Source: a virus (taxonomy: Duplodnaviria; Caudoviricetes). Taken from it: 63,259 nt of DNA. Below the pieces are notes generated by a model that ran no database searches, had not been told where the DNA came from, and saw only the letters and a program-made list of their open reading frames with translations. The DNA is taken from the IMG/VR virus record IMGVR_UViG_3300025108_000002, positions 1-63,259 of that record; one strand, given 5' to 3'. Each line of letters opens with the position of its first letter. Position 1 is the stretch's first letter. The translations under genes were made by a program, and so were the position numbers. Below are positions 12,864 to 63,259 of this stretch, piece by piece.

Positions 12864-14582
12864 ATGTGGAATAATGAATGGAAAAAAGGAGAAGATTACC
12901 CTAAGTGGGGTGATACAGAAGTATACAAAAAAACAATATCTGGTGGATACTTATTACAAGATGAGACTCCTCGTGATGCTTACATGCGTGTTGCTAAAAC
13001 TGTGGCTAGACGATTATATAAGCCCGAAATGGCAGAAACGTTTTTTGATTACATTTGGAACGGCTGGCTTTGTTTGGCTAGTCCTGTGTTATCCAATACA
13101 GGTACTGATCGCGGTTTACCTATCAGCTGTTTTGGTATCGATGTTGCTGATTCTATACAGGATATTGGTCAAAAAAACTTAGAGATGATGCTACTCGCTA
13201 AGCACGGCGGTGGAGTTGGTATCGGTATAAATCAAATAAGACCCGCCGGCGCTAAAATAACAGGTAATGGAACAAGTGATGGAGTTGTGCCGTTTTGTAA
13301 AATATACGATTCAACTATACTTGCCACTAATCAAGGATCTGTCCGACGAGGAGCAGCATCGGTTAATATCAATATTGATCATGCCGATTTCGAAGAGTGG
13401 CTTGAAATACGTGAACCCAAAGGAGACGTCAATCGTCAATCGCTCAACTTGCACCAGTGTGCTATTGTCGGCGATAAATTCATGCGAAGACTTGAAGCTG
13501 GAGATAAACAAGCAAGAAAACGTTGGGGAAAACTTCTTCAAAAACGTAAAGCTACTGGAGAACCTTATATCTTATTTAAAGGGAACACAAATAAAAATAA
13601 CCCTAAAGCGTACAAAGACAACGGTCTCAAGGTACACATGACAAACATATGCTCAGAGATTACATTGCACACAGATGAAAATCACAGCTTTGTATGTTGT
13701 TTATCATCATTAAATCTAGCAAAATATGAAGAGTGGAAAGGTACTAACCTTATTTATGACAGCATATGGTTCCTTGATGGAGTCATGGAAGAGTTTATAC
13801 AACGAGCTAAAGGCTTACGAGGCTTCGAGAATGCAGTACGATCAGCTACGAAAGGAAGAGCGCTTGGCTTGGGAGTTCTGGGCTGGCACACATACCTACA
13901 AGAAAAAGGTATATCGTTCGAAGGCTTACTTGCTCAGTTTGAAACTAGGAAAATTTTTAGTCAAATCAAAATTGAAAGCGAAAGAGCTTCCATGGCACTT
14001 GCTGAAACTTACGGCGAGCCTCTGTGGTGTTCTGGTACTGGTATGCGTAATACTCACCTGCGTGCTGTTGCTCCCACTGTTAGTAATTCAAAGCTTAGTG
14101 GAAACGTCTCGCCAGGCATAGAACCTTGGGCTGCAAATGTATTTACTGAGCAAACCGCCAAAGGGACTTTTATACGTAAAAACCCTACCTTGTTAAAACT
14201 ATTAAGAAAACTTAAAATAAATAACAATGAAACGTGGGATAAGATCATGGCTGATGGTGGTAGTGTGCAAAATATTGCTGAGCTTGATGATGTTGTGTTG
14301 GCACACGAAACACCCGCAAAGGAGGTATTTAAAACTTTTAAGGAGATTAATCAACTAGAATTAGTTAATCAAGCTGGACTGAGACAGCAGTATGTAGATC
14401 AGTCGGTTAGTTTAAACTTAGCTTTTCCTAGTGTAGCTACACCTAAATGGATTAACAAAGTACATTTTGAAGCATGGAAGAAAGGTGTTAAAACTTTATA
14501 TTATACGCGGACAGAATCTGTCTTGCGTGGAGATATTGCACAGCAAGCTATGAGTGAAGATTGCATTGCGTGTGATGGCTAA
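12864..14582 (+). CDS. nrdA: Ribonucleotide reductase class I alpha subunit
   Basis: ASPVLSN, ISCF, GGGVG, TNICSE, GLGVLG, APT, DQSVSLN, KTLYY, C-terminal CIAC. Confidence 0.95.
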   Translation: MWNNEWKKGEDYPKWGDTEVYKKTISGGYLLQDETPRDAYMRVAKTVARRLYKPEMAETFFDYIWNGWLCLASPVLSNTGTDRGLPISCFGIDVADSIQDIGQKNLEMMLLAKHGGGVGIGINQIRPAGAKITGNGTSDGVVPFCKIYDSTILATNQGSVRRGAASVNINIDHADFEEWLEIREPKGDVNRQSLNLHQCAIVGDKFMRRLEAGDKQARKRWGKLLQKRKATGEPYILFKGNTNKNNPKAYKDNGLKVHMTNICSEITLHTDENHSFVCCLSSLNLAKYEEWKGTNLIYDSIWFLDGVMEEFIQRAKGLRGFENAVRSATKGRALGLGVLGWHTYLQEKGISFEGLLAQFETRKIFSQIKIESERASMALAETYGEPLWCSGTGMRNTHLRAVAPTVSNSKLSGNVSPGIEPWAANVFTEQTAKGTFIRKNPTLLKLLRKLKINNNETWDKIMADGGSVQNIAELDDVVLAHETPAKEVFKTFKEINQLELVNQAGLRQQYVDQSVSLNLAFPSVATPKWINKVHFEAWKKGVKTLYYTRTESVLRGDIAQQAMSEDCIACDG

Positions 14583-40001: not shown

Positions 40002-42392
40002 TTAAATAACTGTAGGAAACGGCTGAAGGCTATTTTCTGTTTCAAAATCAATAGGTCCTGTGTCGTTTTTTCTTTGGCTTATCATTTCACTCTGTTGAGT
40101 TGCTTGAATTTTTGTTCTTTTATCTTTTCTGTTTTCTATTCTATTTTCTTTTGCCTCCATGCTTTTTACGTCCATTTGCTTCAACTGCATGTCGTATTGA
40201 AATTGCTGTTGTAGTCTTTGTTGCTCTATTTGAGCAGCGATTTGCATACGTTCAATTTCCATTTGGCTTTTAGCTTGTTCGTATTGAACATTAGCACCTG
40301 ATATAGCTTCTTGTTTTTGAACTTCTGCCATAGCTGTTTTTTCTGCAGTGTCCGCTTGAGCAGCAGCTTGAGCTTGTATATTAGCTTGCTGAGACTGTTG
40401 GTCTTGGATCATTTTTTGCTTACGTTTTATTTTAAGCATTTGGTTTGCTAGTTTAAGATTTTTAATTTGTCTTAAATCTATAGCGTCTTCAAGATCTATA
40501 CCACCTGATTGTAAAGCTACTTGTATATTTTCTTCTAATTTTGCTTGTTCTTCTTCATCTGGTTCTAGTTCTAAAAATATACCAAAATCATGTAGATTTA
40601 AATTATTAACTTCTTGTAAAGTTTCAACATTATAAGTTGATATGGAATTTTCTAAAGCTTGTCTCGTTAATGGAAACTCTAAAGCATCTGAAACTTTTAA
40701 AGCAATATTTTCTGCTATTTTTAAAGTTAAATATAAACTAGACTGTTTGATGTGTCTAGTTGCTACATTAGAAGCATTAGCCGCTATTTTTTGCAACCCA
40801 ACAAGTGTTTGTTTGTCAGGCGTACTACCATCTCTAGCCTCATTAAGTCCTGTCACATCACGTATCATTTGTAAATAATACTGATAAGTAGTTATTAGAC
40901 TTTGTATTTTTGCTTGACCATTAGAACTATTTAATTCTTGTATAGGTACTTTACCGTGATTAAACTCGCCATCTTGTGTCATTGATCTACCTACAATAGA
41001 ACCAGTTTGAAAATACATATTAAGCGCTTCGGCAGGATTATAATTAGTACCATTGCCCAGGTCAACTTCCGCAAGCCCATCCATGTCTAAATAAACGCCA
41101 TCTGGCACCATTCGAGATAAAACTTGTTGTAATTTTAAATGAGTTAATTGTATTATATCAGCAAAGCCAACACACTTACTTACTAAAGATTCTATTTTAC
41201 CTTTGTATATTCTAGGCGCACATATAGCGTAATTCATTTCTACTTTTGTAGTATCCGCGTAAGGTCTAGACATGTTTTCTGCTAACTCCCATTTTAAAAG
41301 AGTATTTGTTCCTAAAACCTTAGCTCCGCTATATAAAACCTCTATAGATCTTGATACTCTTTCAAAGTTATCATTTTCAGGTGGATTAAAACTATCATCT
41401 TTTTCAATAGCTTTCATTAAACCTTGATCTGTTTGTTTTATTTTAAATACTTGATTGTGATATGTTTTGTAATCAAAATATAACACTTGAACTGTATTTT
41501 CGTCGTAATCACCCCAACCAGTAACATAAGATTTGTTACCAGGCATAGCTTGTATTCTCTTTAACTCATCTTCACTGATATCTGGAAACTCTTTTTTTAA
41601 CTCTGGGATTGTTATAGCTTTTAACTCACCTACATAGTATATGTCTTCAAAATTTGGATCTTCTGTATAAGAATGCACAATATAAGCAGGATCAACGTAA
41701 TCTATAGTAACTCCATTAGCTGTGTTAAAGTTAGTTTTAGCAGCAGCAATACCGCAAACTGTCAAGTCCATGTTTAACCTGCGTCTCACTAAGTCGTATT
41801 TGTTTTGAGCTAATATAGAAGATATAGCCTCTTCTTCTGCTATTTCAACTGATTGTTTATAACTTAATTGCATATGAAGTTCTAGTTGCTCAGCTGTTTC
41901 TGGAATTACTTTTTTATTAGGTGATTGATATAAATCAACTCCTAGTGTGTTTTTTAAACTATCAAGATATTCTTTAGCAAGCATGTCTTCTTGAAGTCTA
42001 GAAGCGTACTCTGTTCTTTTTCTTATAGATTCTGGATCTTGAGAATATGCTTTTATGTCATAACTTTTAGAAGAAATACCATTAACTACAATGTCAACAA
42101 ATTTTGATAAAATAGGAACTGGCTTCCAGTCTAAATTAAGATAAGACAAATCGCCATTAATAGACAATTCATCTTTGTATTTTTGTATGCTTTGTTCTCC
42201 TCTTGCGTATTGACGAAGTTGATGATAATTGTTCCAATTAGTTAAATATCTATTGCCACTAGTTCTGCCTCGACCAAACCACTCTTGTTCTATTGCTTGT
42301 GCAACTTGAGATCCGTACTCCCAACTTGCTTTTTCAGCAGTGCTTACAACTTGGCTAGGAAAAGCGCTATTAGTGTTAGTATATATGTTCAT
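40002..42392 (-). CDS. Portal protein
   Basis: Follows terL; LDWKPVPILSKFVDIVVNG, IRDVTGLNEARDG, Q-rich C-terminal coil. Confidence 0.9.
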   Translation of the reverse strand: MNIYTNTNSAFPSQVVSTAEKASWEYGSQVAQAIEQEWFGRGRTSGNRYLTNWNNYHQLRQYARGEQSIQKYKDELSINGDLSYLNLDWKPVPILSKFVDIVVNGISSKSYDIKAYSQDPESIRKRTEYASRLQEDMLAKEYLDSLKNTLGVDLYQSPNKKVIPETAEQLELHMQLSYKQSVEIAEEEAISSILAQNKYDLVRRRLNMDLTVCGIAAAKTNFNTANGVTIDYVDPAYIVHSYTEDPNFEDIYYVGELKAITIPELKKEFPDISEDELKRIQAMPGNKSYVTGWGDYDENTVQVLYFDYKTYHNQVFKIKQTDQGLMKAIEKDDSFNPPENDNFERVSRSIEVLYSGAKVLGTNTLLKWELAENMSRPYADTTKVEMNYAICAPRIYKGKIESLVSKCVGFADIIQLTHLKLQQVLSRMVPDGVYLDMDGLAEVDLGNGTNYNPAEALNMYFQTGSIVGRSMTQDGEFNHGKVPIQELNSSNGQAKIQSLITTYQYYLQMIRDVTGLNEARDGSTPDKQTLVGLQKIAANASNVATRHIKQSSLYLTLKIAENIALKVSDALEFPLTRQALENSISTYNVETLQEVNNLNLHDFGIFLELEPDEEEQAKLEENIQVALQSGGIDLEDAIDLRQIKNLKLANQMLKIKRKQKMIQDQQSQQANIQAQAAAQADTAEKTAMAEVQKQEAISGANVQYEQAKSQMEIERMQIAAQIEQQRLQQQFQYDMQLKQMDVKSMEAKENRIENRKDKRTKIQATQQSEMISQRKNDTGPIDFETENSLQPFPTVI

Positions 42393-44612
42393 TTAAATAA
42401 TTTTTGATGTAATTCCTTTGTTATCGTATTTTTTAAAACCTAAGTCTACAGATTTTAATTCTCTTTTAGCTTGAGGTAAATATCTATGCTTGTTGCAAGC
42501 CATTAAAGCTAAACCTGTACTGATAGAAGCATCATGTTTAGTTCTATTATTTATATTAAATGTAGCCCAGTCTTCTAAGGTTTTTTGAAAATACATATCG
42601 CCATATCCATTTTCTCTTAGTCCAACAAAATGTTCTATGTATGTTTCTATAGCAGCTGCGTGTGCTTGTTTAATGTCTTCACTTGAATTAGGTATACCAC
42701 CTATCTCTCTTTCTGTAACAGATAATTTATTTCTTTTTTTATCTGGTCTATTCATTGCGTAACCTCTATATCCTCTTCTTTTAAAATGATATAGTAATCT
42801 AGGTTTATTATTTTCTACTAATATTGGCATACCGTAAAAAACACAAGCCATAAGTACATCTTCAAAAAATATTTCAGCAGTTTGTGGTCTAGCTATATAT
42901 TCTAAAAAGAAATGATTAGGCGGAACGTCCATCATGCTAAACTTAGTTAAACCATGTAATGAACCGTTAGATCCCTTACCATCAACCGTTCCTGATATAT
43001 CATAAGGATCACAACCAAAAGCTCCTAGTGATTCATTTCCTGGATAATTAACTCCATTTTTTATATATCTTACGTTTTGCATTTCTAACGGCGGAACCCA
43101 AGTTATTTTAAATCTACCGTTTTTGTTTGGCATAAATATAACTCTAGTATCTTTTTTAGCATCTTCCCATTGAAAACTACCTGTAGTTATAGCTAATTCA
43201 TTTTTAGAATCTTCATTAAAATCTATTTGTTGGTAAATCTTAGTTAAGTTAAATAAAGATTCTTTTGACTCATCTCTAAAAGCGTGTTTTGTAGTTCTTG
43301 GAAATTGTCTATAAAATTCATTTAAACCATCTTGATCGTCTTTAAGTCCTTCTACTTCGTTTTTCCAATATTCTATTACACCTATTTTTATTTTATCACC
43401 TTGTGGTCCTTCAATAGGTTTTTTTGGTGTGTCGAATACAGGTAAGCCATAAGAATCAATGTATCCCTCGTAGTTCCATTCCATAGGTATGAACAAAGAA
43501 TAGAGTCCTGAGCGAGTCTGTCCGTTGCTGTTTCTTTTGGTAACGTCTGAATCATCATACAATTTCTTAAAGTTTCTACCACCTTTATCTAAAGCGTTAG
43601 ATGTTGATCCCATCATACACTTACCAATAATTCTAGAACCTAGTCTTAAGGTTGTTTTCGTAACCCTCCAGTTGTTGAGGATGTTGTTCGGCCTTTCCCA
43701 TTTACCGCTCTCATCGTGGACGAGGAGTTTGAGTTTCTCACCATCGTAGGAGTTGTCACCCGTGTTCTTCCAGTCGATTGTGGTGTCCAAGCCCTGGAGT
43801 TCGCCCTGTAAGGTTTCGTCTGTGGTCGTGGCGGTAAGTTTACGACGGGTGTACTTGGTTGCGGGGACACGATAGGCAAGCTCGGTCTTGGGCCTGTCCA
43901 TACCGTCCTGGGTCGGCTTGAAAAAGAATGGGTAATTAACGGATATCGGTACCACCTTGTCTGTAAACATCTTCTTCGCATCAGGTCCAGTCTTAGATAA
44001 TACTCCATATCTAGAGTCGGAGGATATTGTAGCCAAGTTGACCACCTCTCCTGAGGCCATAAATGAAAAACCGGAACGTCTGTTCTTAAGGTAGCACAGT
44101 CCATAGGATCGTATATCGGCCTTGCAAGCCTCCCAGAAAATGAAGAATAATCTATTTGATTCCCGAAAGTCTGGTGCCCCAACGTCAATTTTGCTCCACT
44201 GCAAGTACATGTAATGAGTACCAGTAAGGTAAGTAGCAACGCTTTTGTTATAAAACCAAAAACCTTCCTCCCTACGGGTAAACTCTTTATCAATGTAATC
44301 ATACCATTTTTCTTTAAAATCTTGTGGATATTGCTTCCAGTCGAACGTTGTTTTTATCTTGCTTAAAACCTTAGGATATTCAGTTTTATTCCATTTGTTA
44401 TTATCAAACGTATGAATATCTTTCTTTTCAGGCAAAGCTATTTTTAGGTTTTGTATTTCATAAACCTCTCCAATTTTACCGGTTTTACTTATCACAACCA
44501 TGTCGTGATCTTCGTTGTAACCGTATTCCCACTTGTTATACCTATTCATTCTTTTAAGAACCTTAGGTTTTATGTGGTCGGGTAATACTTTATATAGAGT
44601 TTGTTGATACAT
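42393..44612 (-). CDS. terL: Terminase large subunit
   Basis: KNRRSGFS (Walker A variant), LVHDESGKW (Walker B), GSTSN, FGCDPYD, ENNK, HDASIS. Confidence 0.93.
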   Translation of the reverse strand: MYQQTLYKVLPDHIKPKVLKRMNRYNKWEYGYNEDHDMVVISKTGKIGEVYEIQNLKIALPEKKDIHTFDNNKWNKTEYPKVLSKIKTTFDWKQYPQDFKEKWYDYIDKEFTRREEGFWFYNKSVATYLTGTHYMYLQWSKIDVGAPDFRESNRLFFIFWEACKADIRSYGLCYLKNRRSGFSFMASGEVVNLATISSDSRYGVLSKTGPDAKKMFTDKVVPISVNYPFFFKPTQDGMDRPKTELAYRVPATKYTRRKLTATTTDETLQGELQGLDTTIDWKNTGDNSYDGEKLKLLVHDESGKWERPNNILNNWRVTKTTLRLGSRIIGKCMMGSTSNALDKGGRNFKKLYDDSDVTKRNSNGQTRSGLYSLFIPMEWNYEGYIDSYGLPVFDTPKKPIEGPQGDKIKIGVIEYWKNEVEGLKDDQDGLNEFYRQFPRTTKHAFRDESKESLFNLTKIYQQIDFNEDSKNELAITTGSFQWEDAKKDTRVIFMPNKNGRFKITWVPPLEMQNVRYIKNGVNYPGNESLGAFGCDPYDISGTVDGKGSNGSLHGLTKFSMMDVPPNHFFLEYIARPQTAEIFFEDVLMACVFYGMPILVENNKPRLLYHFKRRGYRGYAMNRPDKKRNKLSVTEREIGGIPNSSEDIKQAHAAAIETYIEHFVGLRENGYGDMYFQKTLEDWATFNINNRTKHDASISTGLALMACNKHRYLPQAKRELKSVDLGFKKYDNKGITSKII
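43646..44302 (-). CDS. Overprinted lipoprotein-like protein in the +1 frame of terL
   Basis: 218 stop-free codons; RK, hydrophobic LLLTLLVLI, then CTCSG; P/T/S/R-rich tail; local shift of terL to C/G-ending codons. Confidence 0.65.
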   Translation of the reverse strand: MITLIKSLPVGRKVFGFITKALLLTLLVLITCTCSGAKLTLGHQTFGNQIDYSSFSGRLARPIYDPMDCATLRTDVPVFHLWPQERWSTWLQYPPTLDMEYYLRLDLMRRRCLQTRWYRYPLITHSFSSRPRTVWTGPRPSLPIVSPQPSTPVVNLPPRPQTKPYRANSRAWTPQSTGRTRVTTPTMVRNSNSSSTMRAVNGKGRTTSSTTGGLRKQP

Positions 44613-44887
44613 TATTTTTTAGATCTACCTTCTGCAAAGCCTTTAAAATTACTTTGCTTTATTTCTTTTGGTTTTTCATCTAACATATCCTGCTCTTCTT
44701 GTATTCTATTTAATATTTCAAAAGCATCAAATATTGCTAATTTTTTTGTTGCTGCTGCATTTTTAAGTCTGTCAGCAGATATATCATCATCTGAATCTAC
44801 AATAGGTTCTTTAGCTACCTTTATCAACTCCTCAACTGCTATTTGCCCAGCTTGGATTATATTTTTCTTCGTCTCCTTGGTTTTCAT
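44612..44887 (-). CDS. Probable terminase small subunit
   Basis: Small helical protein directly upstream of terL. Confidence 0.6.
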   Translation of the reverse strand: MKTKETKKNIIQAGQIAVEELIKVAKEPIVDSDDDISADRLKNAAATKKLAIFDAFEILNRIQEEQDMLDEKPKEIKQSNFKGFAEGRSKK

Positions 44888-45437
44888 ACTTAATTACAAT
44901 ATCATTTGATTTCATACAATAAAGTCTTTCGTTATTAACTAAAAACTCCCATTCACCATTTGGTGTATAGCCAACTAAGTCGCCAGGAGTTATTTCTAGC
45001 TTGTTTAACGAGCTATTGCCATACTTTAGTATACCAATAAGACTACGCTCTTTATCTAGTGTTAGATCTTGATTATCTTTTATAGGTTGTATAAAACATC
45101 TATCGCCAAACGAGTGATAACCTTTATTATTTTTATATAAATAAATTTGATCTATAGCACAAAAATATAAATTATCTTTAAAATAAGATCTACTTTTTTT
45201 CTTAACACCTTTCATGTCGTAAAATGTTCTAAAAACATTTTGATGCACAACTATTAAATCACCTTCTTTTATTAGTGTCTTAATAGCTAGTGGTGTTTTG
45301 ACAACCTTAGCTATTCTGTTTACAAATTTCCAGTTTTCTATTTTAGTGTTAACTACTAGTTCTTTGTTACCCACTTTCACCGTGTTACTGTATTTTTCAC
45401 CTACAGGTTTTACGATAAAGTCATATAAACTGTTCAT
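44832..45437 (-). CDS. GroES-like protein
   Basis: YDFIVKP...IKEGDLIVVH and GDRCFIQP...PGDLVGY resemble two GroES-type units. Confidence 0.55.
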   Translation of the reverse strand: MNSLYDFIVKPVGEKYSNTVKVGNKELVVNTKIENWKFVNRIAKVVKTPLAIKTLIKEGDLIVVHQNVFRTFYDMKGVKKKSRSYFKDNLYFCAIDQIYLYKNNKGYHSFGDRCFIQPIKDNQDLTLDKERSLIGILKYGNSSLNKLEITPGDLVGYTPNGEWEFLVNNERLYCMKSNDIVIKYENQGDEEKYNPSWANSS

Positions 45438-62721: not shown

Positions 62722-62750
62722 TGGAAGAACCGTAATGGTCCATCAAAAAT

Positions 62751-63259
62751 GCTAGACGAGTAGCTTAACTAGGTATGATTAAAGGCGAACGAAGATTAAT
62801 TAGAAGCATCATTGCATCACCTTCTATTCGGCTCGATGATTACACATAAGTGAATAGCTAGCGGGAACTAGGTCAGGTTAGAGACGCAAGACAGGCTTCG
62901 CGACTCGGGCTACCGACGGGTATGAGGTTCGAATCCTCACTAGTTACAAATAGTACAGTATCACGGGTTGCAGAGTAATTTACTGCATGCACGGTGGAAG
63001 TCCGATTGTTGAAGCGGTGAGGGATCGTTATGAACTCGTGGAAACAGAGATAACTGTATTTATAAGCAGTAGTAAGTATAAGTCAGGGTACATACCGGTA
63101 AATGACGTGCATCTTATTACTGCTTTATGGGCGTGAAATGGTTAGACTACAAAATAGGTGGGCGAATGCTGTAAAGATACCGCGAGGAGCGGTACCTAAA
63201 TTGTAGTAACGCAGGTTCGATTCCTGCCACGTCCACTAATTTTAAATATAAACTATGAA
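62751..63259. repeat. Terminal direct repeat, right copy (includes the RNA array; mini-tmRNA at 63129-63238)
   Basis: Identical to 1-509. Confidence 0.97.

What the first reader, a model, noticed from the sequence alone, without database searches (positions are those of the whole stretch)
43646..44302. 218-codon lipoprotein-like gene overprinted on the terminase ATPase domain
Seen: the +1 frame of terL is open for 218 codons from an ATG and has a coherent architecture: basic N-region, hydrophobic LLLTLLVLI, Cys (CTCSG), W/Y-rich middle, then a long P/T/S/R tail. In much of this span terL switches to C/G-ending codons (GAC ACC ACA ATC GAC TGG AAG AAC ACG GGT GAC AAC TCC TAC) and reverts to A/T endings outside it; several stops follow immediately after 43646. 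Established: lambda Rz1 is an overprinted proline-rich lipoprotein, but it lies within Rz. Inference: a spanin-like or superinfection-exclusion lipoprotein hidden in one of the most conserved phage genes. The lipobox is non-canonical. A shorter same-frame ORF follows at 43388-43582.
Basis: partly seen in the sequence, partly recalled or inferred. Interest (0 to 1): 0.85.

Follow-up and report, generated by a model that had tools for sequence, protein, structure and literature searches.

The report
New gene hidden inside phage terminase
A second, 218-codon gene is written in a shifted reading frame inside the DNA-packaging (terminase) gene of a marine phage; selection keeps it readable in most relatives, and it seems to encode a young membrane-targeted, positively charged, unstructured protein rather than a lipoprotein.

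Summary
The ORF at 43646-44302(-), 218 codons, lies in the +1 frame of terL (42393-44612) and coincides with the most GC-rich stretch of the window.

Evidence that the frame is kept open by selection:
- Of 80 relatives (77-96% TerL identity), 50 carry the GC3-rich patch together with an open +1 frame of 186-219 codons. 22 have neither (9-17 stops). 9 are intermediate.
- Given each TerL sequence and its local codon use, 3.5-6.8 stops are expected. 46 of 50 ORF-bearing alleles have none.
- The trinucleotides that would be +1 stops occur 5 times against 304 expected.
- A sister clade with equally high GC3 has 6-17 stops in the same region.
- ORF-bearing and ORF-less alleles encode the same TerL; all consistent differences are synonymous.
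- The segment has been moved between terL backbones by recombination.

Evidence against strong protein-level constraint: synonymous variation is not suppressed overall. Only a few ORF residues (start Met, CTCSG, S176) are fixed through synonymous sites.

The product is an orphan with one hydrophobic N-terminal helix and a disordered S/T/R/P-rich tail (net charge about +20). The lipobox test fails, so the lipoprotein/spanin reading is unsupported.

Verdict: a real overprinted accessory gene. Its function is inferred only, and translation is not shown directly.

The parts
43646..44302 (-). Overprinted ORF: 218 codons plus stop, in the +1 frame of terL
   Evidence: Kept open in 50 of 80 relatives, and shorter in 8 more. 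Stop depletion shown.
42393..44612 (-). terL (terminase large subunit, 739 aa), the older gene that hosts the ORF
   Evidence: phrog_6681, E 2.7e-162, covering residues 24-737. Intact in all 80 relatives.
44300..44302 (-). ATG start of the ORF, formed by terL codons Tyr(TAT)-Asp(GAT)
   Evidence: Met in 50/50 ORF-bearing alleles and 15/22 ORF-less alleles. Five intermediate alleles have a stop at ORF codon 4 and restart at Met5, which argues for internal initiation rather than a frameshift.
44195..44263 (-). Hydrophobic N-terminal helix (ORF residues about 14-36): putative signal peptide or signal-anchor
   Evidence: Kyte-Doolittle 19-residue maximum is 2.30 in the window and averages 2.14 over 50 alleles. 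It is the only AlphaFold2 helix (residues 10-35, pLDDT 60-73). terL keeps T-ending codons here (pos3 T 0.46).
44195..44209 (-). CTCSG motif (ORF residues 32-36)
   Evidence: T33, C34 and S35 are fixed in 50, 50 and 49 of 50 ORF-bearing alleles through the terL synonymous choices TAC, TTG and CAG. ORF-less alleles mostly read CIYNG.
43649..43927 (-). Cationic S/T/R/P-rich disordered tail (ORF residues 126-218)
   Evidence: Composition S 15%, T 14%, R 13%, P 9%; net charge +12.6. pLDDT about 40 with no secondary structure. terL pos3 shifts from T 0.44 to 0.19, C 0.07 to 0.36 and G 0.09 to 0.23.
43646..43648 (-). Stop codon of the ORF, where the GC3 patch ends
   Evidence: In the full-length class, GC3 falls from 0.50-0.92 (terL codons 310-321) to 0.05 (322-327). 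In the shorter class it falls from 0.81 to 0.12 at that class's own stop, near codon 291.

Best explanation
The ORF at 43646-44302(-) is a genuine protein-coding gene that arose by overprinting in the +1 frame of terL, within one clade of marine Flavobacteriia-type podophages.

Shown:
- Selection keeps the frame free of stops.
- Selection shapes terL's synonymous sites differently along the ORF. T-ending codons are kept over the hydrophobic N-terminus; C/G-ending codons dominate over the polar tail.
- The ORF-bearing segment is an allele of terL that encodes the same TerL protein as the ORF-less allele, and it has been moved between terL backbones by homologous recombination.

Inferred:
- Ribosomes start at the conserved internal AUG on the late terL mRNA.
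- They make a protein of about 218 aa, in some lineages about 186 or 165 aa.
- Its N-terminal helix, followed by the small-residue CTCSG stretch, acts as a Sec signal peptide or signal-anchor.
- That places a roughly 180-aa cationic, disordered S/T/R/P-rich tail at the inner membrane or in the periplasm.
- Because about a quarter of close relatives and all outgroups lack it, it is an accessory factor. My best guess, at about 30%, is an envelope-directed role late in infection, such as helping outer-membrane disruption at lysis or excluding other phages.

It is not a lipoprotein. The confidence given is for the claim that this is a real, selectively maintained coding gene with this architecture; the specific function is far less certain.
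For: (1) Distribution. Among the window's terL and 80 relatives (81 alleles), 50 have the GC3 patch and an open +1 frame of 186-219 codons, 22 have neither, and 9 are intermediate.

(2) Synonymous shuffles that keep TerL and local codon use.
- Whole region: 4.4-6.8 stops expected and 0 observed in 13 of 13 full-length alleles tested, each with P <= 6e-4. The +2 frame is not depleted.
- Block-wise, all 50 alleles: 46 have 0 stops against a mean expectation of 3.5. P <= 0.05 in 41/50 and <= 0.001 in 16/50.
- One least-favourable representative from each of 14 allele clusters (synonymous codon difference >= 0.35): 5 stops in total against 39.7 expected.

(3) Junction test. Stop-forming codon junctions after T at terL position 2 number 5 against 304 expected (ratio 0.02). 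The same junctions after C, A or G run at 0.79-1.16. The T class is at 0.92 in the flanks and 0.78 in ORF-less alleles.

(4) Natural control. In the sister clade, 38 of 80 terL genes have region GC3 >= 0.45 yet carry 6-17 +1 stops.

(5) Same TerL. Amino-acid identity between allele classes equals that within classes, and 0 of 739 columns differ consistently.

(6) Extent. The GC3 rise ends within 6 codons of the ORF stop in both length classes.

(7) Residues fixed through synonymous sites: M1, T33, C34 and S176 in 50/50; S35 and T133 in 49/50.

(8) Architecture. The N-terminus is more hydrophobic and the tail more hydrophilic than synonymous shuffles in 12 of 12 alleles tested, out of 50.

(9) Age and ancestry. 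The ORF is absent from outgroups at 61% and 44% TerL identity. It matches no family or fold. AlphaFold2 predicts one helix and disorder elsewhere.

(10) Recombination. Allele state needs 12 changes on the flank tree and 1 on the segment's own tree.
Against: - No overall suppression of terL synonymous change inside the ORF. For close pairs the in/out ratio is 1.21 (24 ORF-bearing pairs) against 1.11 (4 ORF-less pairs). For all pairs, synonymous differences are 0.43-0.49 inside against 0.36-0.38 outside.
- Per-site codon entropy is no lower inside the ORF than in the flanks (that script stopped before its last rows). Fewer third bases are fixed inside the ORF (10/153) than in the flanks (43/288). 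Most of the protein sequence therefore evolves almost freely.
- Most invariant ORF residues (C32, C69, C112, W135 and the Gly residues) are imposed by TerL and are equally present in ORF-less alleles.
- The coincidence of the GC3 edge with the stop could partly reflect recombination breakpoints followed by the dense stops of AT-rich sequence.
- The plus/minus classes were defined by GC3 and ORF length, so class contrasts in those two traits are circular.
- There is no direct evidence of translation. RNA-library contigs cover the region but give no strand, start or ribosome information, and terL mRNA would cover it anyway.
- The signal-peptide reading rests on hydropathy and inspection. No signal-peptide predictor was available.
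Confidence: 0.78

Rival explanations
1. The GC3-rich segment is a compositional allele with some other cause. It happened to be stop-free in +1 when it arose, and the open frame is inherited rather than selected. On this reading the ORF is not a gene.
For: - The segment genealogy is compatible with a single origin (1 change) and the segment spreads by recombination.
- There is no overall synonymous constraint.
- Open +1 stretches of 100-130 codons occur by chance elsewhere in the genome.
Against: - Synonymous sites among ORF-bearing alleles differ at 43-49% of identical-residue codons, and at 47-58% of fourfold sites. The frame has therefore been re-tested many times, yet 46/50 alleles have no stop against 3.5-6.8 expected.
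- The depletion is specific to the stop-forming trinucleotides (ratio 0.02, against 0.79-1.16 for the same junctions after other bases).
- 38 sister-clade genes with equal GC3 have 6-17 stops.
- Third-base use differs between the N-terminal part and the tail in the way a hydrophobic-then-polar protein requires.
Confidence: 0.07
2. The frame is read by programmed +1 frameshifting out of terL. This would give a fusion of TerL residues 1-100 with the ORF, rather than an independently initiated protein.
For: - An A-rich run (AAAGAAAAATGG) lies just upstream of the ATG.
- One database protein, P0042, is exactly such a fusion.
- In several relatives the +1 frame is open for up to 45 codons upstream of the ATG.
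Against: - In many alleles a +1 stop lies only 6 codons upstream of the ATG.
- In 5 intermediate alleles a stop lies immediately before the Met that is used.
- The ATG is kept in 50/50 ORF-bearing alleles.
- The other long database proteins switch frames at scattered positions, as assembly indels do.
- There is no 0-frame stop, and I recognise no known +1 shift motif at the site (from recall).
Confidence: 0.06
3. One reading: a lipoprotein, either Rz1-like (o-spanin) or a superinfection-exclusion lipoprotein.
For: - A basic n-region and a hydrophobic stretch are followed by Cys.
- C34 is conserved by selection.
- The tail contains proline.
Against: - Position -1 of either Cys is T or I, not G/A/S, across 50 alleles.
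- The gene is not nested in or next to an i-spanin gene.
- The tail is about 180 aa, strongly cationic and only 9% Pro.
- No PHROG, Pfam, NCBIfam or PADLOC family matches.
- About a quarter of close relatives lack it, which is odd for a core lysis gene.
Confidence: 0.04
4. The GC-rich patch serves a nucleic-acid function, such as a structured RNA or a DNA site like a packaging signal, and the ORF is a by-product.
For: It is the highest-GC stretch of the genome and lies in a packaging gene.
Against: - RNA folding is no more stable than shuffles (z = +0.54; 13 of 20 shuffles fold at least as well).
- There is no Rfam match.
- The changes are confined to terL third positions and are frame-specific.
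- The antisense and +2 frames are full of stops.
Confidence: 0.03

Closest known systems
Overprinted (de novo) overlapping genes of viruses, as reviewed by Pavesi (PMC8227390, PMC6195259; abstracts seen in the listing)
   Same: - A new ORF nested wholly inside an older, conserved gene in another frame.
- A narrow phylogenetic range.
- An orphan sequence with biased composition (S, R, L, T, P rich) and predicted disorder.
   Different: - The host gene is terL of a tailed phage.
- ORF-bearing and ORF-less alleles coexist in nature and recombine.
- The usual signature of reduced synonymous variation is absent except at a few sites.
Lambda Rz1 nested in Rz; also T7 18.7 in 18.5 (o-spanin inside i-spanin; from my own knowledge)
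   Same: - A same-strand, +1-frame gene completely embedded in another phage gene.
- An N-terminal hydrophobic export-like signal followed by a Pro-containing tail.
   Different: - Rz1 is a short lipoprotein with a canonical lipobox and lies inside its functional partner.
- This ORF fails the lipobox test, is about 3.5 times longer, is cationic, and sits in terL, a gene with no lysis function.
Cationic outer-membrane 'disruptin' of phage PhiKT (gp28), which replaces spanins
   Same: A strongly cationic phage product that could act on the anionic outer membrane. This is a functional analogy only.
   Different: As I recall it, gp28 is a peptide of about 56 aa, is not embedded in another gene and has no signal sequence. 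No sequence similarity was tested or found.
Phage T4 holin T (class III holin: one N-terminal transmembrane domain and a large periplasmic domain; recalled)
   Same: A single N-terminal transmembrane helix and a similar total length.
   Different: T has a folded periplasmic domain, whereas this tail is predicted disordered. No PHROG or Pfam match was found.

Membership tests
Overprinted viral overlapping gene | ORF wholly nested in an older gene in a different frame | tested here: met
   43646-44302 lies inside terL 42393-44612, at frame offset +1.
Overprinted viral overlapping gene | Frame kept open in diverged relatives beyond what composition predicts | tested here: met
   46/50 alleles have 0 stops against 3.5-6.8 expected. 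The junction ratio is 0.02. Sister-clade genes with equal GC3 have 6-17 stops.
Overprinted viral overlapping gene | Younger than the host gene: narrower distribution and no homologues elsewhere | tested here: met
   Absent from outgroups at 61% and 44% TerL identity and from 80 sister-clade genes. No hit in Pfam, PHROGs, NCBIfam, PADLOC or the PDB, and the best Atlas score is 0.79. All 101 database relatives are this same ORF (I read only 10 of the 101).
Overprinted viral overlapping gene | Reduced synonymous variation of the host gene across the overlap | tested here: not met
   The in/out ratio is 1.21 in ORF-bearing pairs and 1.11 in ORF-less pairs. Codon entropy is no lower inside. Only 10 of 153 third bases are fixed, including those of codons 136-138, 236 and 279.
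Overprinted viral overlapping gene | Product is translated | not testable with these tools
   Only contigs of RNA libraries were available. They show neither strand, nor start, nor ribosomes.
Bacterial lipoprotein / o-spanin (Rz1-like) | Lipobox [LVI][ASTVI][GAS]C at the end of the signal peptide (motif recalled) | tested here: not met
   The family reads L-(I/T)-(T/I)-C32 and (I/T)-C-T-C34. Position -1 is never G, A or S in 50 alleles.
Bacterial lipoprotein / o-spanin (Rz1-like) | Embedded in or adjacent to an i-spanin gene | tested here: not met
   The host gene is terL. Its neighbours are the portal gene, a 91-aa ORF with no PHROG match and a GroES-like gene.
Sec signal peptide or signal-anchor | Basic n-region, hydrophobic h-region, small residues at -3/-1 | tested here: inconclusive
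   The first 40 residues carry net +3.5. The 19-residue hydropathy maximum is 2.30. C34-S35-G36 are small and fixed by selection. No signal-peptide predictor was available, so cleavage and topology are inferred.
Programmed frameshift product of terL | An open path from the terL frame into the +1 frame at a shift site, with no need for its own start | tested here: not met
   +1 stops lie 0-6 codons upstream of the Met in many alleles, and the ATG is kept in 50/50.

The most novel reading that the evidence does not exclude
A de novo gene was born inside terL and is still polymorphic in the ocean. The ORF-bearing allele is being carried across many phage lineages by recombination because it confers an advantage. 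Its product would be a secreted or membrane-anchored polycationic disordered protein whose composition, not its sequence, is what selection maintains. It would act on the anionic cell envelope, either as an outer-membrane disruptor at lysis or as an exclusion factor. A second, shorter +1 ORF just downstream (43388-43582), open across the whole clade, may be a further product of the same process.
Probability: 0.25. Interest if true: 0.85.

Novelty: new member of a known kind. Interest (0 to 1): 0.66.

Why it matters
- terL is the hallmark gene used to classify tailed phages, and annotation pipelines treat it as single-coding. No library I searched names this ORF, and the two annotated relatives I fetched do not list it. 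A well-supported second gene inside terL shows that even the most conserved phage genes can hide coding capacity.
- Natural ORF-less alleles encode the same TerL. Together with the length variants of about 218, 186 and 165 codons, they form a ready-made comparative series for studying de novo gene birth.
- The case separates selection for an open frame and for composition from selection for sequence. It shows that a screen based on synonymous constraint alone would have missed this gene.
- Two literature searches listed no paper describing a gene overprinted on terL. I saw listings and abstracts only, and paper supplements were closed.

Tried and rejected
- Higher-GC donor. Rejected. TerL identity between allele classes equals that within classes, no amino-acid column differs consistently, and the 80 closest relatives have GC3 of 0.09-0.29 outside the patch.
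- RNA structure or known RNA family. Fold z = +0.54 and no Rfam hit.
- Antisense gene. Only 50- and 74-codon ORFs lie opposite the region.
- Family and fold searches for the product. Pfam, PHROGs, NCBIfam, PADLOC, a PDB profile search and the ESM Atlas gave nothing usable. AlphaFold2 on 76 sequences gave pLDDT 43, so I ran no fold search.
- Bacteroidetes -7 promoter motif TAnnTTTG (recalled). There are 93 matches in the window against 98.6 expected, so the two hits 103-138 nt upstream of the ATG mean nothing.
- Sequencing runs. Marine metagenomes of 13 studies hold the stretch. Contigs of RNA libraries from 2 studies cover it but cannot show strand, start or translation. I do not count this as expression evidence.
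- Literature. Two searches gave listings and abstracts only. No paper was read in full, and supplements were closed.
- Not done: a tree-aware neutral simulation, OLGenie-type dN/dS, a signal-peptide predictor, and a comparison of gene content between ORF-bearing and ORF-less genomes.
- Dropped or caveated rows: the 9 'mid' alleles were left out of plus/minus contrasts. In some searches, four alleles show 1-4 'observed' stops; I attribute these to an ORF end that I assigned too far downstream, but I did not check this.
Full report
WHAT IS THERE

The window is a complete phage genome of about 62.7 kb. Its first 400+ bases recur at 62750. Overall GC is 33.9%.

The minus strand carries portal (40002-42392; phrog_6547) and terL (42393-44612; 739 aa; phrog_6681, E 2.7e-162). 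The nearest cultured relatives infect Flavobacterium, Cellulophaga, Maribacter and Tenacibaculum, at 31-44% TerL identity.

The reported ORF is exactly as described: 43646-44302(-), ATG start, 218 codons, +1 frame of terL. It is the longest nested ORF in the genome.

The codon switch is real. terL GC3 is 0.63-0.73 over codons 211-315, against 0.07-0.23 over codons 400-739. The stretch 43651-43950 is the most GC-rich 300 bases in the window (0.523, against mean 0.339 and sd 0.043).

COMPARATIVE TEST

The viral contig collection returned 80 terL relatives at 77-96% protein identity. I codon-aligned them to the window. Counting the window, the 81 alleles split sharply:
- 50 alleles ('plus') have GC3 of 0.45-0.70 over the patch and a +1 frame open for 186-219 codons.
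- 22 alleles ('minus') have GC3 of 0.10-0.25 and 9-17 +1 stops.
- 9 alleles are intermediate, most with shorter ORFs of 112-182 codons.

In total, 58 of 81 have a stop-to-stop +1 ORF of at least 150 codons. The +2 frame has 15-43 stops in every allele.

IS THE OPEN FRAME JUST HIGH GC? No, on four counts.

(a) Synonymous shuffles within the region, which keep TerL and local codon use:
- 4.4-6.8 stops are expected. 13 of 13 full-length alleles tested have none (P <= 6e-4 each; 5000 shuffles each).
- The +2 frame shows no depletion.

(b) A stricter shuffle within four blocks of about 50 codons, run on all 50 plus alleles:
- It still expects 3.5 stops (range 1.0-7.3), and 46/50 alleles have none.
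- P <= 0.05 in 41/50, <= 0.01 in 28/50 and <= 0.001 in 16/50.
- Plus alleles form 14 clusters separated by synonymous codon differences of at least 0.35. The least favourable representative of each gives 5 stops in total against 39.7 expected.

(c) The depletion is specific to the trinucleotides that would be stops:
- After T at terL position 2, the junctions A|A, A|G and G|A occur 5 times against 304 expected (ratio 0.02).
- After C, A or G the same junctions run at 1.16, 0.96 and 0.79 of expectation.
- The T class is at 0.92 in the flanks and 0.78 in minus alleles.
- This independence null is crude where the protein is conserved, so I rely mainly on (a), (b) and (d).

(d) A natural control. 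A sister clade of 80 terL genes (61-65% identity to the window's TerL) spans whole-gene GC3 of 0.14-0.64.
- 38 of the 80 have GC3 >= 0.45 in the homologous region, yet they carry 6-17 +1 stops (median 9.5).
- No gene in that clade has an open +1 stretch longer than 110 codons.

WHAT DISTINGUISHES THE TWO ALLELES

Only synonymous sites do.
- TerL identity between plus and minus (0.81-0.92 by sub-region) equals identity within each class.
- No TerL column out of 739 has different majority residues at >= 70% in both classes.
- This rules out import of a diverged segment from a higher-GC phage.

The segment does move, however.
- On a tree built from TerL outside the overlap, allele state needs 12 changes, and well-supported branches force at least 9-11.
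- On the segment's own tree it needs one change (98% SH-aLRT). That tree carries a compositional-bias warning. With codon positions 1+2 only, it needs 5 changes, with one origin not excluded.
- Outgroups at 61% and 44% TerL identity lack both patch and ORF.
- The simplest history is one birth inside this clade followed by spread through homologous recombination.

EXTENT

GC3 tracks the ORF in each length class.
- In full-length alleles it is 0.50-0.92 over codons 310-321 and 0.05 over 322-327.
- In the class ending near codon 291 it is 0.81 over 286-291 and 0.12 over 292-297.
- This fits coding constraint. A recombination breakpoint followed by the dense stops of AT-rich sequence could also produce it, so I treat it as supporting, not decisive.

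PROTEIN-LEVEL SELECTION

The evidence is mixed, and I report the negative part fully.
- terL synonymous change is not suppressed inside the ORF. For close pairs the in/out ratio is 1.21 (24 plus pairs) against 1.11 (4 minus pairs).
- For all pairs, synonymous differences are 0.43-0.49 inside against 0.36-0.38 outside.
- Site entropies are no lower inside.
- Fewer third bases are fixed inside (10/153) than in the flanks (43/288).
- Every terL third position is an ORF second position, so most ORF residues change freely.

Three things are nevertheless selected.
1. Specific residues that depend on synonymous terL choices are fixed in plus and variable in minus:
- M1: 50/50 against 15/22.
- T33-C34-S35: 50, 50 and 49 of 50, where minus mostly reads I-Y-N.
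- S176: 50/50, against L in 21/22.
- T133: 49/50.
2. Third-base use is region-specific. Over the N-terminal 36 codons T stays at 0.46 and A drops from 0.30 to 0.14. Over the tail T drops from 0.44 to 0.19, C rises from 0.07 to 0.36 and G from 0.09 to 0.23.
3. As a result, the N-terminus is far more hydrophobic (19-residue hydropathy 2.0-2.5, against 0.5-1.1) and the tail more hydrophilic than synonymous shuffles, in 12 of 12 alleles tested out of 50.

The virtual tail of minus alleles is hydrophobic (mean +0.25, against -0.70 in plus). The N-terminal hydrophobicity pre-exists in minus alleles (1.92). The derived step was therefore to open the frame and make the tail polar.

THE PRODUCT

- Net charge is about +20 and pI about 10.7-11.2.
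- Tail composition is S 15%, T 14%, R 13% and P 9%.
- AlphaFold2 on 76 sequences gives mean pLDDT 43. The only element is a helix at residues 10-35; everything else is disordered.
- No family, solved structure or Atlas cluster matches.
- Gene callers have called this ORF on many contigs: 101 clusters, none with a Pfam domain and two named only 'hypothetical protein'. Of the 10 I read, the longer ones are frame-switching chimeras of TerL and the ORF, as expected from assembly indels.

START

- Five intermediate alleles have a stop at ORF codon 4 and restart at Met5.
- In many others a +1 stop lies 6 codons upstream of the ATG.
- This favours internal initiation over frameshifting from terL.

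LIPOPROTEIN?

No. Position -1 before either Cys is T or I in all 50 alleles, against the recalled lipobox rule. The selected change from CIYNG to CTCSG makes positions -3 to -1 small (C-S-G), which suits a signal-peptidase I site or a helix cap. That is my inference, not a prediction from a tool.

MECHANISM

- Shown: a selectively maintained open frame, region-specific composition and a recombining allele.
- Inferred: internal initiation on the late terL transcript; Sec targeting or membrane anchoring through the N-terminal helix; and a polycationic disordered tail at the envelope.
- Guessed: because a quarter of close relatives lack it, it is accessory. An envelope-directed late function (aid to outer-membrane disruption, or exclusion) is my best guess, at about 30%. 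A DNA-binding or virion-internal role for so basic a protein is not excluded.

RIVALS

- An inherited but unselected open frame, about 7%.
- A frameshift fusion, about 6%.
- A lipoprotein or spanin, about 4%.
- An RNA or DNA element, about 3% (fold z = +0.54, no Rfam hit).

NOVELTY

Overprinting is a known route to new viral genes, and nested +1 genes such as Rz1 in Rz are known in phages. This is therefore a new member of a known kind. Its setting in terL, its natural presence/absence and length polymorphism, and the lack of a synonymous-constraint signature are unusual. Two literature searches listed no description of a gene overprinted on terL (listings and abstracts only).

LIMITS

- There is no direct evidence of translation. 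RNA-library contigs cover the region but carry no strand or start information.
- No signal-peptide predictor was available, and no tree-aware simulation was run.
- The allele classes were defined by the traits they are compared for.

Noticed in passing
window 43388-43582 (-), terL codons 344-408: The second, 64-codon +1 ORF is stop-free in 65 of 81 alleles regardless of plus/minus class. It averages 0.28 stops against 1.11 expected under synonymous shuffles. In the sister clade only 5 of 80 are stop-free. GC3 over codons 351-400 is about 0.34 in all classes, against about 0.2 beside it. This may be another small overlapping ORF shared by the whole clade.
   Followed up: partly
window 1-400+ and 62750-63259: The first 400 bases (the longest stretch tested) recur exactly at 62750. 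This implies a terminal direct repeat or circular overlap of about 510 bp, so the window is a complete phage genome of about 62.7 kb.
   Followed up: partly
window 12864-14582 (+): The ribonucleotide reductase large-subunit gene (phrog_84, E 3e-152) has three same-frame +1 ORFs of 102, 124 and 131 codons. It also has 20 +1 stops and no GC3 patch. It looks ordinary and serves as a baseline for chance +1 ORFs in this genome.
   Followed up: partly
proteins P0018, P0042, P0054, P0063, P0093, P0094, P0100: These database 'proteins' switch between the TerL frame and the ORF frame at scattered positions, as assembly indels would. P0042 joins TerL residues 1-100 or so to the ORF at the A-rich run just upstream of the ATG, which is where a slip, if real, would occur.
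   Followed up: partly
window 44832-45437 (-) and 44612-44887 (-): A GroES-like co-chaperonin gene (phrog_13932, E 7e-21) lies just upstream of terL. A 91-aa ORF with no PHROG match sits between them and may be the small terminase subunit.
   Followed up: no
loci L083-L162 (sister clade of terL): Whole-gene GC3 of terL ranges from 0.14 to 0.64 among phages whose TerL is 76-82% identical to that of MW202828. Synonymous composition therefore varies widely within this phage group.
   Followed up: no
window 43300-44700: Near-identical sequence is held by marine or seawater metagenome runs of 13 studies from 2017-2025, including RNA libraries of several studies. The laid contigs show many co-occurring variants.
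   Followed up: partly
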